Source of the DNA: Pachysolen tannophilus NRRL Y-2460 | Lineage: Eukaryota | Direction of reading: 5' to 3' | DNA length: 64,000 nt | NCBI GenBank assembly: GCA_001661245.1 | Contig: KV454012.1 | Location: 340,147-404,146 of the forward strand | Part shown: in pieces, positions 27,925 to 38,235 of the stretch | How positions within the stretch are numbered: the first letter of the stretch is position 1 | How the letters are laid out: each line of letters starts with the position of its first letter | Program-made: the position numbers and the translations under genes | The notes under the pieces: model-generated | What the model was told of the DNA's origin: nothing | Database searches by the model: none | What the model saw: only the letters and a program-made list of their open reading frames with translations

Positions 27925-30900
27925 ATGGGTGACCATAAGGTGGATGATACAATTCGAATACCTAGAAGATCGTTTACTGCTTTTAGATTAACGTATTGTA
28001 CTTCAAGACAAATTTCGAAAAACTCAGAAGTTATCTTGTTGGGGCCAATTCCAAATATATGGGTTACAAGTAGGTCTTCAGTGGTTTTAAAATCAATGGC
28101 TCGGTTGTCTCATAGAGAGAAAGTTAAAGATGTAATTTATAGGAAATGCAGATCAGTTGATGAGACTCTCAAGGAATGGGAGGCTTTTGATCTGACAAGT
28201 ACAGAAGAAGAAGAGGAAGAAGAAGAGCTGCGGCGCGAGAGAGAGGTTCGCTCTACAATCAGTCCTCTGGTGCCTTTGAAAAAATTACCAGAATTAACTA
28301 TCCAAGGTTTTGAGAAAGCATCAGATAGTAGAAATGGTCATAGGCAAATTACTACAGGAGGCTCAACAAGTTCAGAAATTAACAATTCTTATACAACAAC
28401 TACTGCAACAGAAAATTCAGATTCTGTAGGTGTATATGCCAATCATAGTGTCATAAATAATGTTCTTCAACCTTTATTTAGATATGATTCAAAAATATCA
28501 AAAAATACACACTCAAGGGGTAAAAAATTTAATGAAAGAAGAAGCATTGATGAAAATATCAATAGTCTGGAATATAAATCAAAAATAATAGGTTGGAATA
28601 ACGATATTGAAGATTTATCAATACTAAGAGATTCTTTTAATTTAGAAAATGAAAATGAAAACGAAAATACTATAAAATTAACTACCTTACCACAAAATAA
28701 TAATATAATTAATAATGATCAATATCGAATGCTTTCTCAAACTGGTGGACTTTCAAGTAGTACTCTTATTCATGATGATAAAGAAAAGAATAAAAAAATA
28801 AAATCATCCAATGTTGAACCAAATGGTTTCAACACTCAGCGGAACCTTAAATCATTAAATAATACTTCTCCTAAAACAGAAATTATAGACCCTGGTCCTA
28901 AATCCATTAATTCACAAATTTTAAGTCAAACAAAAAGGAATAACTCACTGCCAATATCAAGAAGGGTAGAACCCCAAATTAAAGAAAAGTTGAATATAGA
29001 TCAACAGCCGCTAATTTCTTCCATATATGCCAATATCCACGCACGACAGTTGGCTAATGAAAGTAAATATTCTGAAAAATCAAGTAATCTTCAATCAGGT
29101 ATATCCAATAACAATACTGAAAACTATGCAACAAAGTCGTTATCTTTATCATATAAAAGTGCAAAAGGTGATTTACTGCTAACTGATAGCAGCAAAACTC
29201 ATGATCACGATCATGATCATGATCCAAATGTTGAAACTGTAAACTCTTCACTCAATAACGAAGATTCAATTTTGCTATTCCAAAAAAAGCTTCCATTGAG
29301 GCAAAACATTTATGATGACCAAACTAATCAGGAATCTGAATTTTCTAAAAACTTACCTCAGGTATTGAACGGTGATAATAAAAAAACACAAACGAAAAGT
29401 CTGTCTCCTAGTTTTGAAGATAAAGCATCCTTAAATGCTTTCCTGACAACTTATTCAGTTCCTGGTGCCAGTTCATTATCTTCTAATTCTAATTCTTTGA
29501 GCTTAACAGATGATTCTCAAAAGCAAAAAAACAATCAAGTTCCAAAAACTTTACAACATTCCGAAGAAACTACAAAAAACGCAAGCTTTTTCAAAGTATC
29601 ATTTGCTAACCCTGAAAAGAAAAGGACAAAAGGTTCAACGATCAGTAAACTTGGTGCTAATGGTGTTCTGATTAAAAAAATAAGACCCAAGCCTTTGAAC
29701 GCAGAGCATCGATCATTGGTCTATCCAGTAGAGGCAAAACATTATCAAATATTGAAAAGATTAGAAAAAAGAGCTTTCAGCGTTAAACATAAATTCACAA
29801 AAGAGGTTGAAAACTTGGAGAAAAAGAGACGTTTGAAACTGAAGCTAAAGAATTTTCAAAATGGATCAATTATAAAAGTGGAAAAAATGCTTGTTCTAGT
29901 TAAAACTTCTCTTTCTTCTATATGTCATACCGTAGCGGTTTCTGGCCTAATGGAGAACGAGGGGTGCGACACCAGAGTTGTTGAGAGATGGAAGGAATAT
30001 ATTGTGGTAGTAAGATCAACAGGTGACTTGGAAAATCCACTTTACATTCAATTTTACAGAAACAGGAAGATTCCAGAGAAACAGACATCACAGAAGAATG
30101 AATTTGATTTTAAATTAAATATTCATACTAGTATCGTTAAATTTTATAGCTCACTTGACAAGACAATTTCCATCACTATGAAAAATTCTGAGAATGGTAG
30201 CTATATGTTTTATATATTGAGAACAAGTACTCAGTCTTCAGCAATACGATGGCATTCATTTTTTCAGGAAATTTTGGGTTACAAAGTGAAATCAAAGCTT
30301 AGGTTGGATCTCCCTGAGCTTGATGTATCTATGAATATAAGTATACCTTACTGTGATTTTGAAAGGATTATCAAAGAGGGTCAGAGGAGAAAAGAAGAGT
30401 TTGAAATATTAGTCAAAAATAAAGGATACAAAGTTGAACAAATAGCATTTTCAGATTACTTGATTAATATCATTGCGAAAAACTTGAAAGAGTGCAACTT
30501 GTATCATGAAAAGATAAAATTTTTGGAGTATCAGGATCATCTATTCTCTTTTGCATGGAAACATTATGATCGATTAGAATGGATATTTGGCGAAAATCAA
30601 AATTTACTATATGGAAAATGGTCAATGGGTTCAACGCATACGTTGGAATTTAGGTCAGCCAAACATTATCCAACAACTGTTTTAACAACTGAAGGAAGAC
30701 ATGTATCTGAGCCTATCCCAATAGAAGGATTTTTAGGCAGATTAACTTCAAGATCTGGAAAAGATATTTCTTCCTTTCTTAAAAAACCAATTTTCAAATT
30801 AAAGTACTTCTACACTAACGATAATATGTTAATGTTCTGTAAACCTTCAAGAGCCATACCCCCGTTGCCTGAATCAATCGATTTTGAATCTTGTTTTCAG

Positions 30901-32118
30901 AATGGCGAGAGACTCAAGGAAGTTATTAATTCGATGCCAGCAATTTATCAGAAAAACCCATTCAAGTTGGATGATAACGATCATATTGAGTGGCTAAAGC
31001 CAGGCATGAGTAAAGCTGAGTTTATCCAAAAGGACAGGCATGCGTTACAAGAAATGGAACGAAAAATATCTCTGGTTACCAGAGCAGATGGTTTAATTGA
31101 TATGTGTCAAATAATACAGGTTAAATCAGTTCCAGTTAGTGAAATCAAAAATATAATCAAAACTGCTAGTAGTTTACTTTGGACTTCCTCGCCTACTCAT
31201 GTTAATGACATGAATTTAGTGGATGCTTGTTTTGATATAATATTGAATGATGGTGGAATTATTAGGTTACAGGCTCCTTCAAGATCTATTAAATATGAAT
31301 GGATCGCCAAGTTAATTCAAATGAGAGATTATTGGATTCAAAGGAAAAAAGATGATTTATCGAGATTAATGAGAGTCAGGCAAAAAAACATGGAGATTTT
31401 ACATGCTAGCGAATATGTTGAGTCTACAATTTCTCATTCTACACCTAAGTGGGAGACTTCAAGAGGTATTGCAGACTCCTATATATACAACGTCAGTGGT
31501 ACGGCATTATCAAGATGTGTCGTGATGAGTGGAATCTTATATCAAAAACCTAAAAAGCATTCAGTTTTTACAAAATACTTTGTCGTATTATGTCCCGGGT
31601 TCATAATTTTATACAGTATGTTCAAAAGAAATCACTCAGGTTTTGTTAAAAGTACTACTGATTATAGACATTATTTAACAATTCCAGTCCATGAAAGCTA
31701 TGTGTATTCAGGGATGAATACCACACTAGACTTACTAGATAGAAATGAAGAGTTTGATGAGATCCACCCGGGGCACTATTCGTTGCCAAGAATTTATCCT
31801 GATTTCTGGAAATCTTCAGAAGAAGAATCGGAAAGATGTTTTACCTTGTGGTTCGGTACCAAAAGAGCTATTGCAGGCAAAAAAGAGCATATAAATAGGA
31901 GGACTAATGATAGTCACGCTAGCTTACAAAATTCACAAATAAATTCCTCTCGAAATCCTGGGTTAATCAGAATGGTAAATAGATTAGGAGTCACTGGTAG
32001 AAGCATTGTGTTTATGGCAAGGTCAAGACAAGAAAGAGACTTGTGGGTTACAAGGTTACTCTCCCAGATTGAAAGGTTTGCGGTTTTAGATTATGATGAG
32101 ATCAAGTTGGTTCATTAG
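27925..32118 (+). CDS. SPO71: Prospore membrane PH-domain protein
   Basis: IPRRSFTAFRL N-terminus, EKMLVLVK...DTRVVERWKEY, WKHYDRLEW, EPIPIEGFL, SGILYQKPKKHS, C-terminal FMARSRQERDLWV. Confidence 0.9.
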   Translation: MGDHKVDDTIRIPRRSFTAFRLTYCTSRQISKNSEVILLGPIPNIWVTSRSSVVLKSMARLSHREKVKDVIYRKCRSVDETLKEWEAFDLTSTEEEEEEEELRREREVRSTISPLVPLKKLPELTIQGFEKASDSRNGHRQITTGGSTSSEINNSYTTTTATENSDSVGVYANHSVINNVLQPLFRYDSKISKNTHSRGKKFNERRSIDENINSLEYKSKIIGWNNDIEDLSILRDSFNLENENENENTIKLTTLPQNNNIINNDQYRMLSQTGGLSSSTLIHDDKEKNKKIKSSNVEPNGFNTQRNLKSLNNTSPKTEIIDPGPKSINSQILSQTKRNNSLPISRRVEPQIKEKLNIDQQPLISSIYANIHARQLANESKYSEKSSNLQSGISNNNTENYATKSLSLSYKSAKGDLLLTDSSKTHDHDHDHDPNVETVNSSLNNEDSILLFQKKLPLRQNIYDDQTNQESEFSKNLPQVLNGDNKKTQTKSLSPSFEDKASLNAFLTTYSVPGASSLSSNSNSLSLTDDSQKQKNNQVPKTLQHSEETTKNASFFKVSFANPEKKRTKGSTISKLGANGVLIKKIRPKPLNAEHRSLVYPVEAKHYQILKRLEKRAFSVKHKFTKEVENLEKKRRLKLKLKNFQNGSIIKVEKMLVLVKTSLSSICHTVAVSGLMENEGCDTRVVERWKEYIVVVRSTGDLENPLYIQFYRNRKIPEKQTSQKNEFDFKLNIHTSIVKFYSSLDKTISITMKNSENGSYMFYILRTSTQSSAIRWHSFFQEILGYKVKSKLRLDLPELDVSMNISIPYCDFERIIKEGQRRKEEFEILVKNKGYKVEQIAFSDYLINIIAKNLKECNLYHEKIKFLEYQDHLFSFAWKHYDRLEWIFGENQNLLYGKWSMGSTHTLEFRSAKHYPTTVLTTEGRHVSEPIPIEGFLGRLTSRSGKDISSFLKKPIFKLKYFYTNDNMLMFCKPSRAIPPLPESIDFESCFQNGERLKEVINSMPAIYQKNPFKLDDNDHIEWLKPGMSKAEFIQKDRHALQEMERKISLVTRADGLIDMCQIIQVKSVPVSEIKNIIKTASSLLWTSSPTHVNDMNLVDACFDIILNDGGIIRLQAPSRSIKYEWIAKLIQMRDYWIQRKKDDLSRLMRVRQKNMEILHASEYVESTISHSTPKWETSRGIADSYIYNVSGTALSRCVVMSGILYQKPKKHSVFTKYFVVLCPGFIILYSMFKRNHSGFVKSTTDYRHYLTIPVHESYVYSGMNTTLDLLDRNEEFDEIHPGHYSLPRIYPDFWKSSEEESERCFTLWFGTKRAIAGKKEHINRRTNDSHASLQNSQINSSRNPGLIRMVNRLGVTGRSIVFMARSRQERDLWVTRLLSQIERFAVLDYDEIKLVH

Positions 32119-32146
32119 ATTTGTTTTTGAATATTTCCCATGTTTT

Positions 32147-33538
32147 ATTGTTTCACTTCAAACACCAAAACCTTCGGTCTTAAAAATAGAAGCATTAAAT
32201 GCAGATGACCAGTATTTAAGCAGCGATAATGCATCTGTTGTGGAAAAATGGGGGGCCGCATTGAGCGATTTGGAAATGTTGTTTCCGAACGAATTCCTAA
32301 CTGGAACAATTGAATTATCTGACATTGGAGATGAAGATTGTTCTGCCTCGACTATACAACGAAATTCATTGGCAACTACTATAGGAAGAGATGAAAATTT
32401 CCAGATTTCGGATGTTAATATGCTGAGTTTGAGTGCTAATTTATTAAACATCTCGACAAGATCTTCTTATTTCCCACGGAAATCGCAAAACGCCATTATC
32501 CTTATTCTAAATCAATATAACATGTCACAGAATTCAGTAACAATTTTCAAAAATATAATTAGAGCTTTAGCATTGATTGAGTTAGAAATTTTTTTTGTGT
32601 CGACAGAAAAAGTATCATTATCGCTTGAATCAGGTTATAAATCAAAGGCAGTTATCTTGAAGAATAACTGTGAACAGGAACTTATTGATGCGTTGGATAA
32701 AGGGAAGGATAACAGTTCTTTTTCAAACCAAGAAGGAAACTTATCAACGGTAATAAATGAATATTTGCTGGAATGTAAATATCCATTAGAGCAGATTGCA
32801 ACTGTGGTTTTATCAAATTTATCGCTAAACTTGAATAATTTTCCAACCATAAAGAATATATTTATTGAAATTGGCGTTGTAAATAATAAGAATAGCCCAC
32901 TTGAAATATATTCGTACCCTCAAGATAGGACCACGGTCAAGTTAAATTCTTGGGATGATGTGATGGAAAGAATATGCGGTGAATTAGATTTGTCTTTTGA
33001 TCGAATTAATGATAATGATCAACAACAAGAAAACAGAAACTCTATCAAAAGTATTTTTGGTTTTGGTTTTGGTTTTGGTACTGGTACTGGTAAGAATATC
33101 TCTCCCAGGCAATCCGAAGATAGTTCACTTAAAAAACAGAACCTAGGATTACCAATTACTGATGATTTCAGTAAGCATGATTCGGAAAGTATTTCTTCAG
33201 AGAGTGACTCAGATGCTGAAGTAATTGACGAATTATTAGAAAATTTTGATACCAGCGATATTGATGCAGATTCAACTACATACAAGGATACCTATCCCAA
33301 CACTAACAAACCAGTTGACTTGTTTTGTGAACTGATTAATTCAGAAGATAAAAAAGCGAATGCGATTGAAAACATTGATACATCTGCCTTAAATCCAAGA
33401 ATCTGGTCTGAAAATTCAAAATTGAATTACAAAATTGAAAGTAGGCAGAGAATGGACAATAGTTCAGGTAGATGGAGTTCGCTTTTTTCAGATATTGACC
33501 GTGCTCTATATGAAACTTCTAAATCCCCATATGAGTAA
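32147..33538 (+). CDS. STE5: Inverted C-terminal half of the Ste5-like scaffold (end of PH domain, VWA-like region, acidic tail); left boundary approximate
   Basis: Begins mid-domain: TPKPSVLKI...YLSSDNASVVEKWGAALSD...FP, resembling the last strands and Trp-containing helix of a PH domain. The nominal ATG at 32093 lies inside SPO71 and leaves no promoter space. Confidence 0.75.
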   Translation: MVSLQTPKPSVLKIEALNADDQYLSSDNASVVEKWGAALSDLEMLFPNEFLTGTIELSDIGDEDCSASTIQRNSLATTIGRDENFQISDVNMLSLSANLLNISTRSSYFPRKSQNAIILILNQYNMSQNSVTIFKNIIRALALIELEIFFVSTEKVSLSLESGYKSKAVILKNNCEQELIDALDKGKDNSSFSNQEGNLSTVINEYLLECKYPLEQIATVVLSNLSLNLNNFPTIKNIFIEIGVVNNKNSPLEIYSYPQDRTTVKLNSWDDVMERICGELDLSFDRINDNDQQQENRNSIKSIFGFGFGFGTGTGKNISPRQSEDSSLKKQNLGLPITDDFSKHDSESISSESDSDAEVIDELLENFDTSDIDADSTTYKDTYPNTNKPVDLFCELINSEDKKANAIENIDTSALNPRIWSENSKLNYKIESRQRMDNSSGRWSSLFSDIDRALYETSKSPYE

Positions 33539-33849
33539 AACCTTCCTTTGCATAGTTCAAGTTAGACATTAATCATTAATTGATATGGGAAAAAAAACAA
33601 CAGATTTCGGATAACTACAAATTTTTCTACCACCTATGTAATATTTTCATAATCCTTTGTGACAAATTTGAAATTACTTTACATAGAATGTACATAAGAC
33701 ACTTGAATATAAATATACATCTTTTTTATATTCCAGATAATAGTTGAGGTATATCAATCAATCAAACTTTTTAGGCTTTTTAGTTATATCCAAATTTATA
33801 GTATGACAACCAACCTGTAAGCTTCAAATTTTACACATCTTCATAAATA

Positions 33850-33931
33850 GGCAACGTGGCCGAGCGGTTAAGGCGAAAGATTAGAAATCTTTTGGGATTT
33901 TCCCGCGCAGGTTCGAGTCCTGCCGTTGTCG
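33850..33931 (+). tRNA. tRNA-Ser(AGA), 82 nt with long variable arm
   Basis: Acceptor GGCAACG/CGTTGTC, discriminator G, A-box TGGCCGAGCGG, anticodon arm AAAGA-TTAGAAA-TCTTT, variable arm GGGA-TTT-TCCC, T-loop GTTCGAGTCC, followed by an oligo-T terminator. Confidence 0.98.
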
Positions 33932-34048
33932 TTTATTTTTTATTCTCTAATTTTTTTTTTTTCCTTTTTAGGAAGATACGTATGCATAAGAAATCATGTT
34001 TAATACCTTTTACCTAAAATTCTATTTAATTAGCAAAAGCAAAACACT

Positions 34049-35695
34049 CTATAAATTTGAATTGATGCAAAAATTTGCCTTTATACCCAGTGGTGAAGAA
34101 GCAGGACTTGAAGCATTGTGATCAACATTATTCAGCAATTTGATTGTATAATAATCGTTATAATCTGAATTAACAATCAACAATTGAAAACTAAATAAGT
34201 AGCAATATTTGTTTGACCAGTTTTTACCATCTTTTGAAACTAAAAGTTTATCAGCTAATCTTAATAATCCAAAAGAATCGACTATGGATTCACTTATTTC
34301 CCTTTTAACTTTTTGTTTTTCAAAATTTCTAGTTAAATCAGCTATAAATCTTGAACGAAGTAATGCCAATGGTATACTATTATTGAAAGATTTTTGTGTG
34401 TGAATAGAACTAAAGACTTTTGTCTTTGTAGAAGTTGGGGATGAAATTGGTGATTTTGAAGCTGATGAAATAATTGATGACATTGCTGATATTGAAGAAC
34501 CTCTTGAAGCTTTTCTATGATGTAATGATGCTATCCCAGACGCCACAAGTCTTTTGTCTGGAATATCAATTGATAAATCAGAATTTGGTCTAATTTTACC
34601 TTTTCTTGAAGAAGATGATGGGGTTGTTGAACTAATGATGGAAGGGCTTAATCGTAATTTTGGAGTTGTTGTTATTCTTTTATTTTGATCTTTTTTAGAT
34701 ATGGAAGTTGGTAACGAGATTTTAGAATTCTCAAGTAATTGTTTTGTTAAAATCGAATCTGCAGTATTATCATCACTTGGAATAGCCTCTTGATTACATT
34801 TTTTACATATAGGAAATATTGATCTACCATTTGTATTTTTTAATCCATTTGAAATTTTTCCTAGATCATCAAAAGTTTCTTCTTCAATAACAATGTTTTT
34901 AGGTGTTTCAACTGTTGAAAATTCTATTGCAACGTTAAAACATTGTTCATGACAAGTATCACCACATTTTAGTTCTATAATTTTTTCTGAAATATCTGTT
35001 GAAGTTAAAACAGATTCTAAAGGTTCATCACAAAAAACGCACCGTATTCCAAGTAAATTTTTACGTTGTCTTGGAGATTGATTATAAGCAAATGGTTGAA
35101 CTCTTGGAGGTGAAGATAATCTAGAAATAGAAGAAGTTGGAAACTTGATTCTTGGTTCTGATGAAGGTACGTTACGTATATGACGTACTGGAGTTCTAAA
35201 AGGATCTGGTAAATCTTGAATTTCAAAAGTGGGTTTATTGATTCTTGGGAACGGGGACTGAGAAATTTCTGGAACTTCTATCTTTGGCATTGATGTTGAT
35301 TTTGAAATATTTGCAGCTGGAAGTAATTTATTATTATTATTAAATTTTGATTTTTTCTTGAAAAACAATGATGGAGAACTAGGCATTTTCCTATGAGTAT
35401 TATTACCATTACCAGCAACTGCATTACGAGAAACTGAATTACCACTGACTTTAGCATCAGTGTGCCTGCTTAAATTATTCGTTAAAGCATTCAAAGATTC
35501 TTCATCAATTAAACTTCCTGGTGGTATTATTGATTTCTTATTCTTATTAATATTATCACCACCATGTGATCCAGGTGATGAAAACCTTGTCTTTGGCTTC
35601 CAACTTGTAGATAATGACGGCGAAACCGAATCCATCTTATCTATATCTCGATCTATTATATTATTACTATTTTTTCTTTTAGGTTTCAATGACAT
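34049..35695 (-). CDS. STE5: Ste5-like MAPK scaffold, N-terminal half (RING-H2 plus first part of the PH domain), truncated at the inversion junction
   Basis: RING-H2 CVFCDEPL...ELKCGDTCHEQC...FPICKKC, then FGLLRLADKLLVS...CYLF (Ste5/Far1 PH start). Neighbour of SPO71, as STE5 (YDR103W) is of SPO71 (YDR104C) in S. cerevisiae. Far1 is not excluded by sequence alone. Confidence 0.8.
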   Translation of the reverse strand: MSLKPKRKNSNNIIDRDIDKMDSVSPSLSTSWKPKTRFSSPGSHGGDNINKNKKSIIPPGSLIDEESLNALTNNLSRHTDAKVSGNSVSRNAVAGNGNNTHRKMPSSPSLFFKKKSKFNNNNKLLPAANISKSTSMPKIEVPEISQSPFPRINKPTFEIQDLPDPFRTPVRHIRNVPSSEPRIKFPTSSISRLSSPPRVQPFAYNQSPRQRKNLLGIRCVFCDEPLESVLTSTDISEKIIELKCGDTCHEQCFNVAIEFSTVETPKNIVIEEETFDDLGKISNGLKNTNGRSIFPICKKCNQEAIPSDDNTADSILTKQLLENSKISLPTSISKKDQNKRITTTPKLRLSPSIISSTTPSSSSRKGKIRPNSDLSIDIPDKRLVASGIASLHHRKASRGSSISAMSSIISSASKSPISSPTSTKTKVFSSIHTQKSFNNSIPLALLRSRFIADLTRNFEKQKVKREISESIVDSFGLLRLADKLLVSKDGKNWSNKYCYLFSFQLLIVNSDYNDYYTIKLLNNVDHNASSPASSPLGIKANFCINSNL

Positions 35696-36345
35696 ACTTA
35701 ATGTTAAGAAGTCTCCAGCCTTAACTTAACTTTTTTTTCTTTATTTTTATTTTTGGTGATTTTTTTTTCTGCAAGAAAATTTATTTTACTTCAAAAATTG
35801 ATCCCATCAGTAAAAATTATATTTTCAAATTGTTTTTTTTTTAATTTTATTATCTCTATCAAATATTCTCCTTATCTGATGATCTATAATGAGGTGTATA
35901 TTATATTATAAATTTTTTTTTTTAATTTTTTATTTTAAAGTGCCTCAACCGATCATTTGATGAAGTACTATTGATTTCTAAGATGAAAAAAAAGAATAAA
36001 ATTTTTTAAAAAGATAGTAGTAGTTGTATAAATTTAGCGGTATACTTGAGGCAGTCTTGTTTCACCTTCTCACAACTGCCCCTTACAAAATGAGGACAGC
36101 CACATAAAAGAACCCCGAAAGAATCAAGCTAAATTAAAACGTCCACATTTCATACTTTGATTTACTTAGGTCTATCTAAGTAAAACCTAAGTAAGACTAA
36201 GTAAGACTAAGCAAGCTAAGGCAGTTTAAGGCTGGTTAAGGCAAGTTTAGGCAAGGTCCCAAAATTGATGGTCTTGAATAGTTTTAAATATCATGTAATT
36301 CAACTAATTGTAACCAAGGTATTAAAGATTTTTCAAGCATATTTG

Positions 36346-36378
36346 ACATATTTGACATATTTAATATGTCAAATATGT
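36346..36378. repeat. Perfect 16-bp-arm inverted repeat with a 1-nt spacer in the STE5-PDA1 intergenic region
   Basis: ACATATTTGACATATT-T-AATATGTCAAATATGT. Confidence 0.9.
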
Positions 36379-36963
36379 TTGATATACTGCATGTCTTTTA
36401 ATTAAAAGGGCAATTAATTGTGTCCATCCAATTTTATTAGTTTTTGGCAGTTGTATCTGCTGGACGGAGGAATCAACTAAACAGGCAGTCCGAAGAGGGC
36501 AGCAGTTAATTGCAGTCAATTGCAGGTAGCCAAGTGGAAGCTGACAGGTTGCCGCCGGCGGAAAGCAAAAGGGGCGGTTTCATTTTTGGTTCAATTTTAT
36601 TTTATTTCCCCTTCACTTCCCACCCCTGCCGCCCTAAACCTCATTTTTTTTTCTTCTTCATTTTACGGGCGTTATTGCTTTCTTTTCTACTTTTTTTCTG
36701 CTTTTGGGCGGATTGGTAAAATCCGCGTACTCGATAGAGAGAAGCCCATTTAGTGGAAGATTTTTTTCTTTTTTACCGTAGAAGAAAGAAAGAAAGAAAG
36801 CAAAGGTTTTTAATTTTAACTATTTTTTTATTATTTTTTTATTTAATCATTTTATCAATTCAATTCAACTTAATTCAACTTAAATCAATTCAAATCAATT
36901 CAATTTAATTTGATCAATTGAGGGTTTCTTTTTTTTTTTCTTTTTTAAATTTGATTATTGAAA

Positions 36964-38235
36964 ATGTTACGTTGTTCTTCTTTTTCTCCGGTTGCGAGAA
37001 AAGTATTTCAATCTTCGTTAGTAAGAAATAATAGAATTAATGTTAAAGTTAATAATACTTTATCGGCGGTTAGAAGATTAGCAACTACATCTGATGAAGC
37101 TGCTGAAAATATTGCTAATGACCAGACAGTTCAACTTGAGATTCCTGCAACTTCTTATGAAGGTTATATGTTGGAAGATCTTCCTGATTTAACTTTTGAA
37201 ACTGAAAAATCAACCTTGTTACAAATGTATAAAGATATGGTTATTATTAGAAGAATGGAAATGAGTGCTGATGCTTTATATAAAGCTAAAAAGATTAGAG
37301 GCTTCTGTCATTTGTCGGTAGGTCAAGAAGCTATTGCTGTTGGTGTTGAAAATGCAATTACGAAAAAAGATAGTGTTATTACATCTTATAGATGTCATGG
37401 TTTCACTTATATTAGAGGTTCTCCAGTTAAAGATGTCTTGGGAGAATTGATGGGTAAAAGATGTGGTGTTTCTTATGGTAAAGGTGGGTCCATGCATATG
37501 TATACAACGGGATTCTATGGAGGAAATGGAATTGTTGGAGCCCAAGTCCCATTAGGTACGGGTTTAGCTTTTGCACATCAATATAATAATGAAGCAAATT
37601 GTACATTTAACTTATACGGTGATGGTGCTGCTAATCAAGGTCAAGTTTTTGAATCTTTTAACATGGCTAAATTATGGGATTTACCTTGTATATTTTGTTG
37701 TGAAAATAATAAGTATGGTATGGGTACTTCAGCTTCTAGATCATCAGCAATGATTGAATATTATAAAAGAGGTCAATATATTCCAGGTTTAAAAGTAAAC
37801 GGTATGGATGTATTGGCAGTTTTCCAAGCTTCAAAATTCGCAAAAGATTGGGTTATTTCAGGTAATGGACCTCTTGTATTGGAATTTGAAACTTATAGAT
37901 ATGGTGGTCATTCAATGTCTGATCCAGGTACTACTTACCGTACAAGAGAAGAAATTCAAAACATGAGATCAAGAAATGACCCAATTGCAGGATTAAAACA
38001 CCATTTGATCGAATTGAATATTGCAACAGAAGATGAAGTTAAAGCTTATGATAAAGCTGCTAGAAAATATGTTGATGAACAAGTCGAGTTGGCAGATGCT
38101 GCCCCACCTCCAGAAGCCAAGATGGATATTTTATTCGAAGACGTATACGTCCCAGGATCAGAAATCCCTGTATTAAGAGGCAGAATCTCAGATGATTCTT
38201 GGTCATTTGCTAAAGGTGGATTTGCAAACCGTTAA
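36964..38235 (+). CDS. PDA1: Pyruvate dehydrogenase E1 alpha, mitochondrial
   Basis: Presequence, IRGFCHL, YGKGGSMHMY, YGDGAANQGQ, YRYGGHSMSDPGTTYR. Confidence 0.98.
   Translation: MLRCSSFSPVARKVFQSSLVRNNRINVKVNNTLSAVRRLATTSDEAAENIANDQTVQLEIPATSYEGYMLEDLPDLTFETEKSTLLQMYKDMVIIRRMEMSADALYKAKKIRGFCHLSVGQEAIAVGVENAITKKDSVITSYRCHGFTYIRGSPVKDVLGELMGKRCGVSYGKGGSMHMYTTGFYGGNGIVGAQVPLGTGLAFAHQYNNEANCTFNLYGDGAANQGQVFESFNMAKLWDLPCIFCCENNKYGMGTSASRSSAMIEYYKRGQYIPGLKVNGMDVLAVFQASKFAKDWVISGNGPLVLEFETYRYGGHSMSDPGTTYRTREEIQNMRSRNDPIAGLKHHLIELNIATEDEVKAYDKAARKYVDEQVELADAAPPPEAKMDILFEDVYVPGSEIPVLRGRISDDSWSFAKGGFANR

What the first reader, a model, noticed from the sequence alone, without database searches (positions are those of the whole stretch)
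32147..34120. STE5-like mating scaffold split mid-PH domain by a ~1.9 kb inversion that also contains tRNA-Ser
Seen: the minus ORF 35695-34049 has RING-H2 and stops shortly after the first PH strands (LRLADKLLVS...CYLFSFQLLIV...YTIKL). The plus ORF ending at 33538 starts with what looks like the rest of that PH domain (SLQTPKPSVLKI...SVVEKWGAALSD) and has no independent promoter or credible ATG. Flipping the interval joins them into one protein of about 1000 aa (RING-PH-VWA-like) convergent with SPO71, the S. cerevisiae arrangement. The left junction is within about 32119-32160 and the right within about 34052-34130. One in-frame option uses a TGTT microhomology (NNV|SLQTP). Inference: an inversion that turns a pheromone-pathway scaffold on or off would be a new kind of fertility switch, conceptually like the flip/flop MAT inversions of methylotrophic yeasts. 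Those use long inverted repeats, which I cannot find here.
Basis: partly seen in the sequence, partly recalled or inferred. Interest (0 to 1): 0.88.

Follow-up and report, generated by a model that had tools for sequence, protein, structure and literature searches.

The report
Assembly-flipped block splitting an intact STE5
The two gene halves do belong to one yeast mating-scaffold gene, but public sequencing reads of the same strain show only the intact, un-inverted gene, so the "inversion switch" is most likely an orientation error in this assembly.

Summary
In the window, a minus-strand ORF (35695-34049) and a plus-strand ORF (ending 33538) are consecutive halves of one Ste5-like RING-PH-VWA scaffold. 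A 1,925-bp block (32149-34073), which also holds tRNA-Ser(AGA), separates and misorients them. Flipping the block in a script gives one 1003-aa ORF, convergent with SPO71. That ORF aligns to 900-1000-aa orthologues in a single stretch across the joint.

I laid read-derived contigs of four public runs (two samples, two studies) on 30500-36500. They match the window with no substitutions. All four join 32148 to 34073 and 34073 to 32150 on opposite strands, which is the colinear gene. Depth across these joints equals the flanks. Depth arithmetic shows that no contig in any run covers the window's left junction. No inverted repeats flank the block.

Odds:
- About 0.7: an orientation error in the assembly.
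- About 0.2-0.25: a real inversion private to the assembled culture.
- About 0.03: a programmed switch.

Interest is low.

The parts
27925..32118 (+). SPO71-like gene (1397 aa), the convergent neighbour of the scaffold gene
   Evidence: ORF. Pfam PH_SPO71 E=9.9e-35, PH_4 E=4.6e-75, Spo7_2_N E=8e-19.
32149..34073 (.). 1,925-bp block that is inverted in the window relative to read-derived contigs of four public runs (1 nt of ambiguity at each end)
   Evidence: table 5 gives opposite-strand joints 32148/9|34073/2 and 32149/50|34073/4 in X1, X2, X3 and X5. table 8 records 1, 2, 6, 7, 11, 12, 16 and 17 run through these joints. Flipping exactly 32149-34073 restores a 1003-aa ORF.
32150..33538 (+). 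C-terminal 462 codons plus stop of the Ste5-like gene: end of the PH domain, VWA-like domain and C-terminal RWSxLFxDID motif. It is misoriented in the window.
   Evidence: Aligns to P0002 from 493 and to P0003 499-773 and 874-896. Alignment A1. The family profile hits Ste5 VWA structures 4F2H and 3FZE.
33590..33597 (.). A8 homopolymer inside the block. All four runs have one more A.
   Evidence: table 4: 'put in behind 33589: A' in X1, X2, X3 and X5, each in the single contig covering the place. Sequence shown.
33850..33931 (+). tRNA-Ser(AGA), multi-copy in the genome. In the colinear form it lies on the minus strand between the SPO71 and STE5-like stops (flipped coordinates 32291-32372).
   Evidence: ARAGORN. 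Depth is raised and contigs break here (tables 2, 7, 8). Mapping.
34049..34072 (-). Spurious 7-codon tail plus stop (FCINSNL*) that ends the truncated N-half ORF in the window. In the colinear form this is intergenic DNA beside the SPO71 3' end.
   Evidence: Codon positions read. Joint position.
34073..35695 (-). N-terminal 541 codons of the Ste5-like gene: RING-H2-type Cys/His motif and the first PH strands
   Evidence: ORF. Pfam PH_10 N-terminal part only. 39% identity to P0002 169-506. Conserved Cys/His columns in A1.

Best explanation
The locus is an ordinary, intact orthologue of the pheromone-pathway scaffold gene STE5. It encodes 1003 aa (RING-H2, PH, VWA-like domain) on the minus strand, convergent with SPO71, with a tRNA-Ser(AGA) gene between the two stops. 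In this assembly a 1,925-bp block (32149-34073) has been written in the wrong orientation. The block carries the 3' 46% of the gene, its 3' flank and the tRNA. This artificially cuts the gene inside its PH domain. Shown here: the halves belong together, and reads of an indistinguishable strain carry only the colinear form. Inferred: the cause is an assembly or finishing error, for example a patch or small contig inserted backwards, and not biology.
For: (1): I laid contigs built from reads of X1, X2, X3 (one sample, study P1) and X5 (another sample, study P2) on 30500-36500. In 4 of 4 runs one contig goes from 30500-32148/9 directly into 34073/2 downwards. A second contig goes from 36500 down to 34073/4 and directly into 32149/50 upwards. 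This is exactly the block flipped. Contig depths are 123-133 (X1), 170-184 (X2), 65-70 (X3) and 119 (X5), the same as the flanks. (2) My arithmetic tables 2 and 8: the depth of bin 32108-32308 (124.5, 173.1, 65.9, 119.6) equals the length-weighted sum of just those two contigs in every run. So no further contig covers the window's left junction. (3) tables 3 and 8: the long pieces have no other letters over 6 kb, so these runs come from the same or an indistinguishable strain. The only other difference is a homopolymer length (A8 against A9 at 33590-33597), which lies inside the block. (4): flipping 32149-34073 gives one 1003-aa ORF that aligns in a single HSP across the joint (residues 541/542) to P0002, P0003, P0004 and P0005. 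(5): full-length homologues match the family profile in a single stretch, for example P0006 (1023 aa), P0002, P0003 and P0010. (6): no inverted repeat links the junctions. (7) Identity: profile A1 hits 'Protein STE5' VWA structures 4F2H (E=4.5e-11) and 3FZE (E=1.4e-10). Of 53 profile hits that I scanned, 26 carry Pfam Ste5_C above its cut-off.
Against: Both breakpoints lie in unique sequence and not at the tRNA repeat, and the flip is exact to the base. Repeat-driven misassembly does not usually look like this, and a balanced inversion needs two false junctions. I could not see the reads from which the window was assembled, so the inverted form may truly exist in that culture. Contigs drop rare variants, so a minor inverted subpopulation in the four runs is not excluded. 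The right-junction bin also holds small tRNA-related contigs that were not all listed, so the depth arithmetic is clean only for the left junction. The homopolymer difference falling inside the block has about a 1 in 3 chance of being coincidence.
Confidence: 0.7

Rival explanations
1. The inversion is real but private. The isolate or subculture used for this assembly carries a spontaneous 1.9-kb inversion, from two breaks joined without homology, that inactivates STE5. The result would be a sterile mutant. Other sequenced stocks of the same strain keep the intact gene.
For: The breakpoints are in unique sequence, the flip is exact and balanced, and there is at most 1 nt of junction ambiguity. 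This is what end-joining would give and is not typical of repeat-induced misassembly. From general knowledge, recalled and not tested here: loss-of-function mutations in pheromone-pathway genes, STE5 among them, are recurrently selected in propagated haploid S. cerevisiae cultures.
Against: 4 of 4 runs from 2 studies, with no substitutions against the window over 6 kb, show only the colinear form. Inversions are a rare class of mutation. No read evidence for the inverted junctions was available.
Confidence: 0.22
2. A programmed, reversible inversion switches the Ste5 scaffold on and off. The inverted state would be a minority in most cultures and was captured by this assembly.
For: Only that the inverted form appears in one assembly and that contigs cannot exclude rare variants (header).
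Against: There are no flanking inverted repeats or recognisable recombination sites. Known flip/flop systems use long inverted repeats (recalled; for PMC5720833 I saw only the start of the abstract in the listing, which describes a 19-kb inversion at MAT). Contigs pass the colinear junctions without a break in all four runs, so the other orientation is absent or very rare there. One breakpoint cuts a coding sequence mid-domain without any site structure. No relative shows a split form among the homologues listed.
Confidence: 0.03
3. The split is ancient and functional. The organism expresses the RING/half-PH part and the half-PH/VWA part as two separate proteins.
For: Both halves are open reading frames in the window.
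Against: The reads show the colinear gene. The C-half has no ATG of its own except one inside SPO71. The cut lies inside the PH fold.
Confidence: 0.01

Closest known systems
Ste5, the MAPK-cascade scaffold of the pheromone response in Saccharomyces cerevisiae and other budding yeasts
   Same: Same domain order: RING-H2, PH, then a VWA-like domain. The family profile matches the solved Ste5 VWA domain (4F2H, 3FZE). It also matches proteins named Ste5 in S. arboricola (P0028), Maudiozyma humilis and Saccharomycodes ludwigii. The gene is convergent with SPO71, as I recall for YDR103W/YDR104C (recalled, not from a call).
   Different: Very divergent. The window's halves alone hit neither Pfam Ste5_C nor the PDB. 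The closest relatives (Wickerhamomyces proteins P0002 and P0010) are only about 37-39% identical in the N-half. The Fus3-docking motif PF11610 was not detected. A short extra S/P-rich segment sits in the PH domain at the joint.
Far1, the paralogous RING-PH-VWA polarity scaffold and CDK inhibitor
   Same: Same three-module architecture, according to Cote et al. 2011 (PMC3023161; abstract and passages read).
   Different: No protein named Far1 appeared among the 30 profile hits whose names I looked up. The function-bearing names were Ste5. Synteny with SPO71 points to STE5. I built no Ste5/Far1 tree, so Far1 orthology is unlikely but not formally excluded.
Flip/flop mating-type inversions of methylotrophic yeasts (Ogataea polymorpha, Komagataella phaffii)
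   Different: Those systems invert a region at MAT (19 kb in O. polymorpha; PMC5720833, start of the abstract seen in the listing) between long inverted repeats (recalled). Both orientations coexist. Here there are no inverted repeats, and only one orientation, the one opposite to the window, is seen in reads.
Orientation (inversion) errors in genome assemblies
   Same: A block with exact boundaries is flipped relative to independent read-derived contigs of the same strain. A homopolymer-length discrepancy lies in the same block.
   Different: The boundaries are not at the local repeat (the tRNA gene). The way the error arose is not identified.

Membership tests
Ste5 scaffold family | RING-H2-type Cys/His zinc-binding motif in the N-terminal third | tested here: met
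   Conserved Cys/His columns (C-x2-C ... CGDTCHE-C ... C-x-KC) are shared by the N-half and P0002-P0005 in alignment A1. Pfam RING models score only below their cut-offs in the orthologues, and nothing was listed for the window's N-half. The feature is therefore met at motif and alignment level only.
Ste5 scaffold family | PH domain following the RING | tested here: met
   The N-half matches PH_10 profile positions 1-38 (or 1-73 including the spurious tail) at 23-24 bits, below the 27.5 cut-off. The rest of the domain, including the ...VEKWGAALSD helix, lies in the C-half and aligns to the same domain of the homologues. Homologues P0019 and P0020 pass the PH_10 cut-off.
Ste5 scaffold family | VWA-like domain (Pfam Ste5_C; binds Ste7 and co-activates Fus3 in S. 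cerevisiae) | tested here: met
   Profile A1, which includes the window's C-half, hits PDB 'Protein STE5' 4F2H at E=4.5e-11 and 3FZE at E=1.4e-10 over profile positions 486-667. P0002 scores 24.4 bits on Ste5_C against a cut-off of 25. The window's C-half alone gives no Pfam or PDB hit, so this is met at profile level only. Binding functions were not tested.
Ste5 scaffold family | Fus3-docking motif (Pfam PF11610 'Ste5') | tested here: not met
   No hit in either half. Among 53 homologues scanned only P0028 (S. arboricola Ste5p) has it, so it seems confined to close relatives of Saccharomyces and is not defining for the wider family.
Ste5 scaffold family | Orthology to STE5 rather than FAR1 (synteny, phylogeny) | tested here: inconclusive
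   The gene sits next to and convergent with SPO71 once the block is flipped. The S. cerevisiae arrangement is recalled. Of 53 scanned profile hits, 26 carry Ste5_C above its cut-off. Names found among 30 looked up: 3 Ste5-type, 0 Far1. No tree with labelled Far1 sequences was built, and the rest of the genome could not be searched for a paralogue.
Programmed invertible DNA switch (flip/flop type) | Inverted repeats or recombinase sites at both ends of the invertible segment | tested here: not met
   The repeat finder on 31500-34800 (seed 7, minimum length 10) lists no inverted pair linking ~32149 and ~34073 among the 25 longest shown of 170 pairs. The pairs shown are 70-88% matches in AT-rich DNA elsewhere. 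The junction ambiguity is 1 nt.
Programmed invertible DNA switch (flip/flop type) | Both orientations coexist in cell populations | tested here: not met
   Only the colinear orientation is present in contigs of 4 of 4 runs. No contig lies over the window's left junction (and depth arithmetic). Caveat: contigs drop rare variants, and raw reads were not available.
Programmed invertible DNA switch (flip/flop type) | Orientation changes with condition (for example nitrogen starvation) | not testable with these tools
   No condition-specific or RNA runs were listed.

The most novel reading that the evidence does not exclude
The inverted form is real and recurrent. A low-frequency, homology-independent inversion of 32149-34073 would reversibly disable the Ste5 scaffold in a subpopulation of cells. 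It would be invisible in contig-level data and would have been captured by chance in this assembly. A weaker version is a one-off sterile inversion fixed in the assembled culture, at roughly 0.2.
Probability: 0.03. Interest if true: 0.8.

Novelty: not a real feature. Interest (0 to 1): 0.08.

Why it matters
If the inversion were a genuine switch, it would be a new way of gating fertility in yeast. The evidence instead says that the gene is intact in the organism. The practical value is a correction. The two gene models in this assembly, a 548-aa RING/half-PH protein and an orphan C-terminal ORF, should be merged into one 1003-aa STE5 orthologue. The block 32149-34073 should be flagged as misoriented. 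The case also shows that mid-domain gene splits with exact flips need read-level checks before they are given a biological reading.

Tried and rejected
- Whole-genome search of the window's own assembly: no genome is held. I could not look for a Far1 paralogue or for other flipped blocks.
- RNA evidence: no RNA holder was listed, so nothing can be said about transcripts.
- Single-sequence searches of the halves:
  - C-half against Pfam: nothing at E<=0.01. At E<=10 there was only a chance-level HAT1_C_fung hit.
  - C-half against the PDB: 0 hits at E<=10.
  - N-half against the PDB: only a chance-level bL36m hit, E=0.27.
  - The identity came out only with the family profile.
- Looking for the colinear 1003-aa protein in the protein collection: the 'longer' search with the N-half found only P0006 (33% identity, 1023 aa). 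The tool itself calls this weak evidence. It is not used for or against.
- Naming a Far1 reference among profile hits: 30 proteins were looked up and none was named Far1. I therefore attempted no labelled Ste5/Far1 tree.
- Earlier findings of this scan: nothing by place, words or sequence.
- The idea that the two similar S/P-rich segments flanking the joint (...SSPASSPLGIKAN and SLQTPKPSVLKIEALN) reflect a breakpoint duplication. Both align to the same homologue columns. I dropped the idea because the reads show them in tandem in the intact gene, and one search lists no DNA-level repeat between them.
The single read-laying run took X1, X2, X3 and X5.
- A literature search for STE5 plus inversion plus mating-type switching returned 5 papers, of which 4 were listed. 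Judging from titles and abstract starts only, none concerns an inversion in STE5.
Full report
**What is in the window**

Under the standard code the region holds these features:
- an SPO71-like gene on the plus strand (27925-32118; Pfam PH_SPO71, PH_4, Spo7_2_N);
- a plus-strand ORF ending at 33538, whose only upstream in-frame ATG (32093) lies inside SPO71;
- tRNA-Ser(AGA) at 33850-33931 on the plus strand;
- a minus-strand ORF 35695-34049 of 548 aa;
- an E1 dehydrogenase gene (PDA1-like, 36964-38235).

The 548-aa product matches only the N-terminal part of a PH model (PH_10 positions 1-73 of 121, 24.4 bits, below the cut-off).

**The halves belong together**

The 548-aa product finds 900-aa-class proteins. 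One is P0002, a 916-aa Wickerhamomyces ciferrii 'zinc finger protein' at 39% identity. Another is P0003, 901 aa.
- The N-half aligns to P0002 residues 169-506.
- The plus-strand ORF aligns to P0002 from residue 493.
- It also aligns to P0003 499-773 and 874-896.

These are consecutive parts of one protein. In the six-row alignment A1 the first PH strands lie in the N-half. The rest of the PH domain, a VWA-like region and a conserved C-terminal RWSxLFxDID motif lie in the C-half.

**What the reads say**

The run search listed five holders of the stretch 31900-34400 in two studies. Each held 0.95 of the sampled words. I laid the read-derived contigs of X1, X2, X3 (one sample) and X5 (a second sample and study) on 30500-36500.

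The long pieces carry no substitutions against the window, so the strain is the same or indistinguishable. In all four runs:
- one contig covers 30500-32148/9 and continues directly with 34073/2 running downwards;
- a second contig covers 36500 down to 34073/4 and continues directly with 32149/50 running upwards.

Together these are the window with block 32149-34073 flipped. The contigs break only in the multi-copy tRNA gene. Their depth (X1 123-133, X2 170-184, X3 65-70, X5 119) equals that of the flanks.

I checked the depth table by arithmetic. For bin 32108-32308 the reported values (124.5, 173.1, 65.9, 119.6) are exactly the length-weighted sums of those two contigs. So nothing else, and in particular no contig with the window's left junction, was laid there in any run. 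The right-junction bin also holds small tRNA-related contigs, so it cannot be checked this way.

The only other difference from the window is one extra A in the A8 run at 33590-33597. That run also lies inside the block.

**Rebuilding the colinear form**

In a script, flipping exactly 32149-34073 gave a single 1003-aa ORF from 35695 to a stop at 32684-32686 in flipped coordinates. tRNA-Ser then lies on the minus strand at 32291-32372, between this stop and the SPO71 stop.

The joint is in frame (...GIKAN|VSLQT...), between residues 541 and 542. The joined protein aligns across the joint in a single HSP:
- to P0002 (196-586 against 169-536);
- to P0003 (187-835 against 163-773);
- to P0004 and P0005.

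The 17 residues DHNASSPASSPLGIKAN after NNV are part of the real protein. Only the last seven residues and the stop of the 548-aa ORF are spurious.

**Identity of the gene**
- The halves alone give no Pfam or PDB family hit for the VWA part.
- The profile of A1 hits the two solved 'Protein STE5' VWA structures: 4F2H at E=4.5e-11 and 3FZE at E=1.4e-10.
- The profile finds 263 proteins at E<=0.001 in the representative library, 85 of them at E<=1e-30.
- Of the 150 listed I scanned 53 with Pfam, choosing mostly the long ones with near-full-length matches. Of these, 26 carry Ste5_C far above its cut-off. P0006 is sub-threshold, as is P0002.
- I looked up names for 30 hits. The function-bearing names were Ste5p (S. 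arboricola), Ste5 protein (Maudiozyma humilis) and 'Ste5 Fus3-binding domain-containing' (Saccharomycodes ludwigii). One was probably misnamed FtsY. None was Far1. The rest were hypothetical or unnamed, from Wickerhamomyces, Komagataella, Kuraishia, Pichia and others.
- Cote et al. 2011 (PMC3023161; abstract and passages read) describe Ste5 and Far1 as paralogous RING-PH-vWA scaffolds that coexist across Saccharomycotina.
- The convergent SPO71 neighbour matches the S. cerevisiae STE5/SPO71 arrangement as I recall it.

I therefore file the gene as a divergent Ste5 orthologue. Far1 is unlikely but was not excluded by a tree.

**Why not a switch**
- No inverted repeat links the junctions.
- Junction ambiguity is 1 nt.
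- Only the colinear orientation appears in reads of two independent samples.
- All full-length relatives are colinear.
- The known flip/flop systems invert a region at MAT. For PMC5720833 I saw only the start of the abstract. That they use long inverted repeats is recalled.

**What remains open**

I could not see the reads behind this assembly. Both breakpoints are in unique sequence and the flip is exact, which is unusual for a repeat-driven misassembly. It would also fit a genuine end-joining inversion in the assembled culture, which would make that culture sterile. Contigs cannot exclude rare variants.

My odds:
- assembly or finishing orientation error, 0.7;
- real but private inversion, 0.22;
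- programmed switch, 0.03;
- functional split gene, 0.01.

**Verdict**

The structural inference, one gene cut by a flipped block, is correct. The biological interpretation is not supported. Interest is low, and the useful outcome is a corrected gene model.

Noticed in passing
window 33590-33597: The window has A8 where all four laid runs have A9 (table 4). Apart from the flip, this is the only difference over 6 kb, and it lies inside the flipped block. It hints that the block's sequence came from lower-accuracy data. It could also be coincidence, with about a 1 in 3 chance.
   Followed up: partly
window 34073-34111 (-) and 32153-32200 (+): The two segments on either side of the true joint (SSPASSPLGIKAN and SLQTPKPSVLKIEALN) both align to the same PH-strand columns of the homologues (one search also aligned the first one there). 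The intact protein may carry a short, diverged internal duplication or a loop insertion in its PH domain. No DNA-level repeat was listed between them.
   Followed up: partly
window 33849-33941: The tRNA-Ser(AGA) gene is multi-copy. Depth is about 2.3 times the flanks, several short variant contigs cover it, and a loose end carries a different upstream flank in all four runs (tables 2, 7, 8). Read-derived contigs break here, not at the block's boundaries.
   Followed up: no
window 35718-35940: This AT-rich, low-complexity promoter region upstream of the STE5-like start was skipped by the read-laying tool as a repeat. The contigs themselves run through it (table 8; sequence).
   Followed up: no
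window 22587-45378: The neighbouring genes look ordinary: a PAB1-like gene (4 RRM plus MLLE), a synaptobrevin-family gene, a PDA1-like E1 dehydrogenase and a BRR2-like helicase. I noticed no other split genes among ORFs of at least 150 aa, but I did not examine them in detail.
   Followed up: partly
runs X1-X3 and X5: The two studies label their organisms differently (organism A and organism B), yet their contigs are identical to each other and to the window over 6 kb. The labels may be synonyms or a reclassification. I did not pursue this.
   Followed up: no
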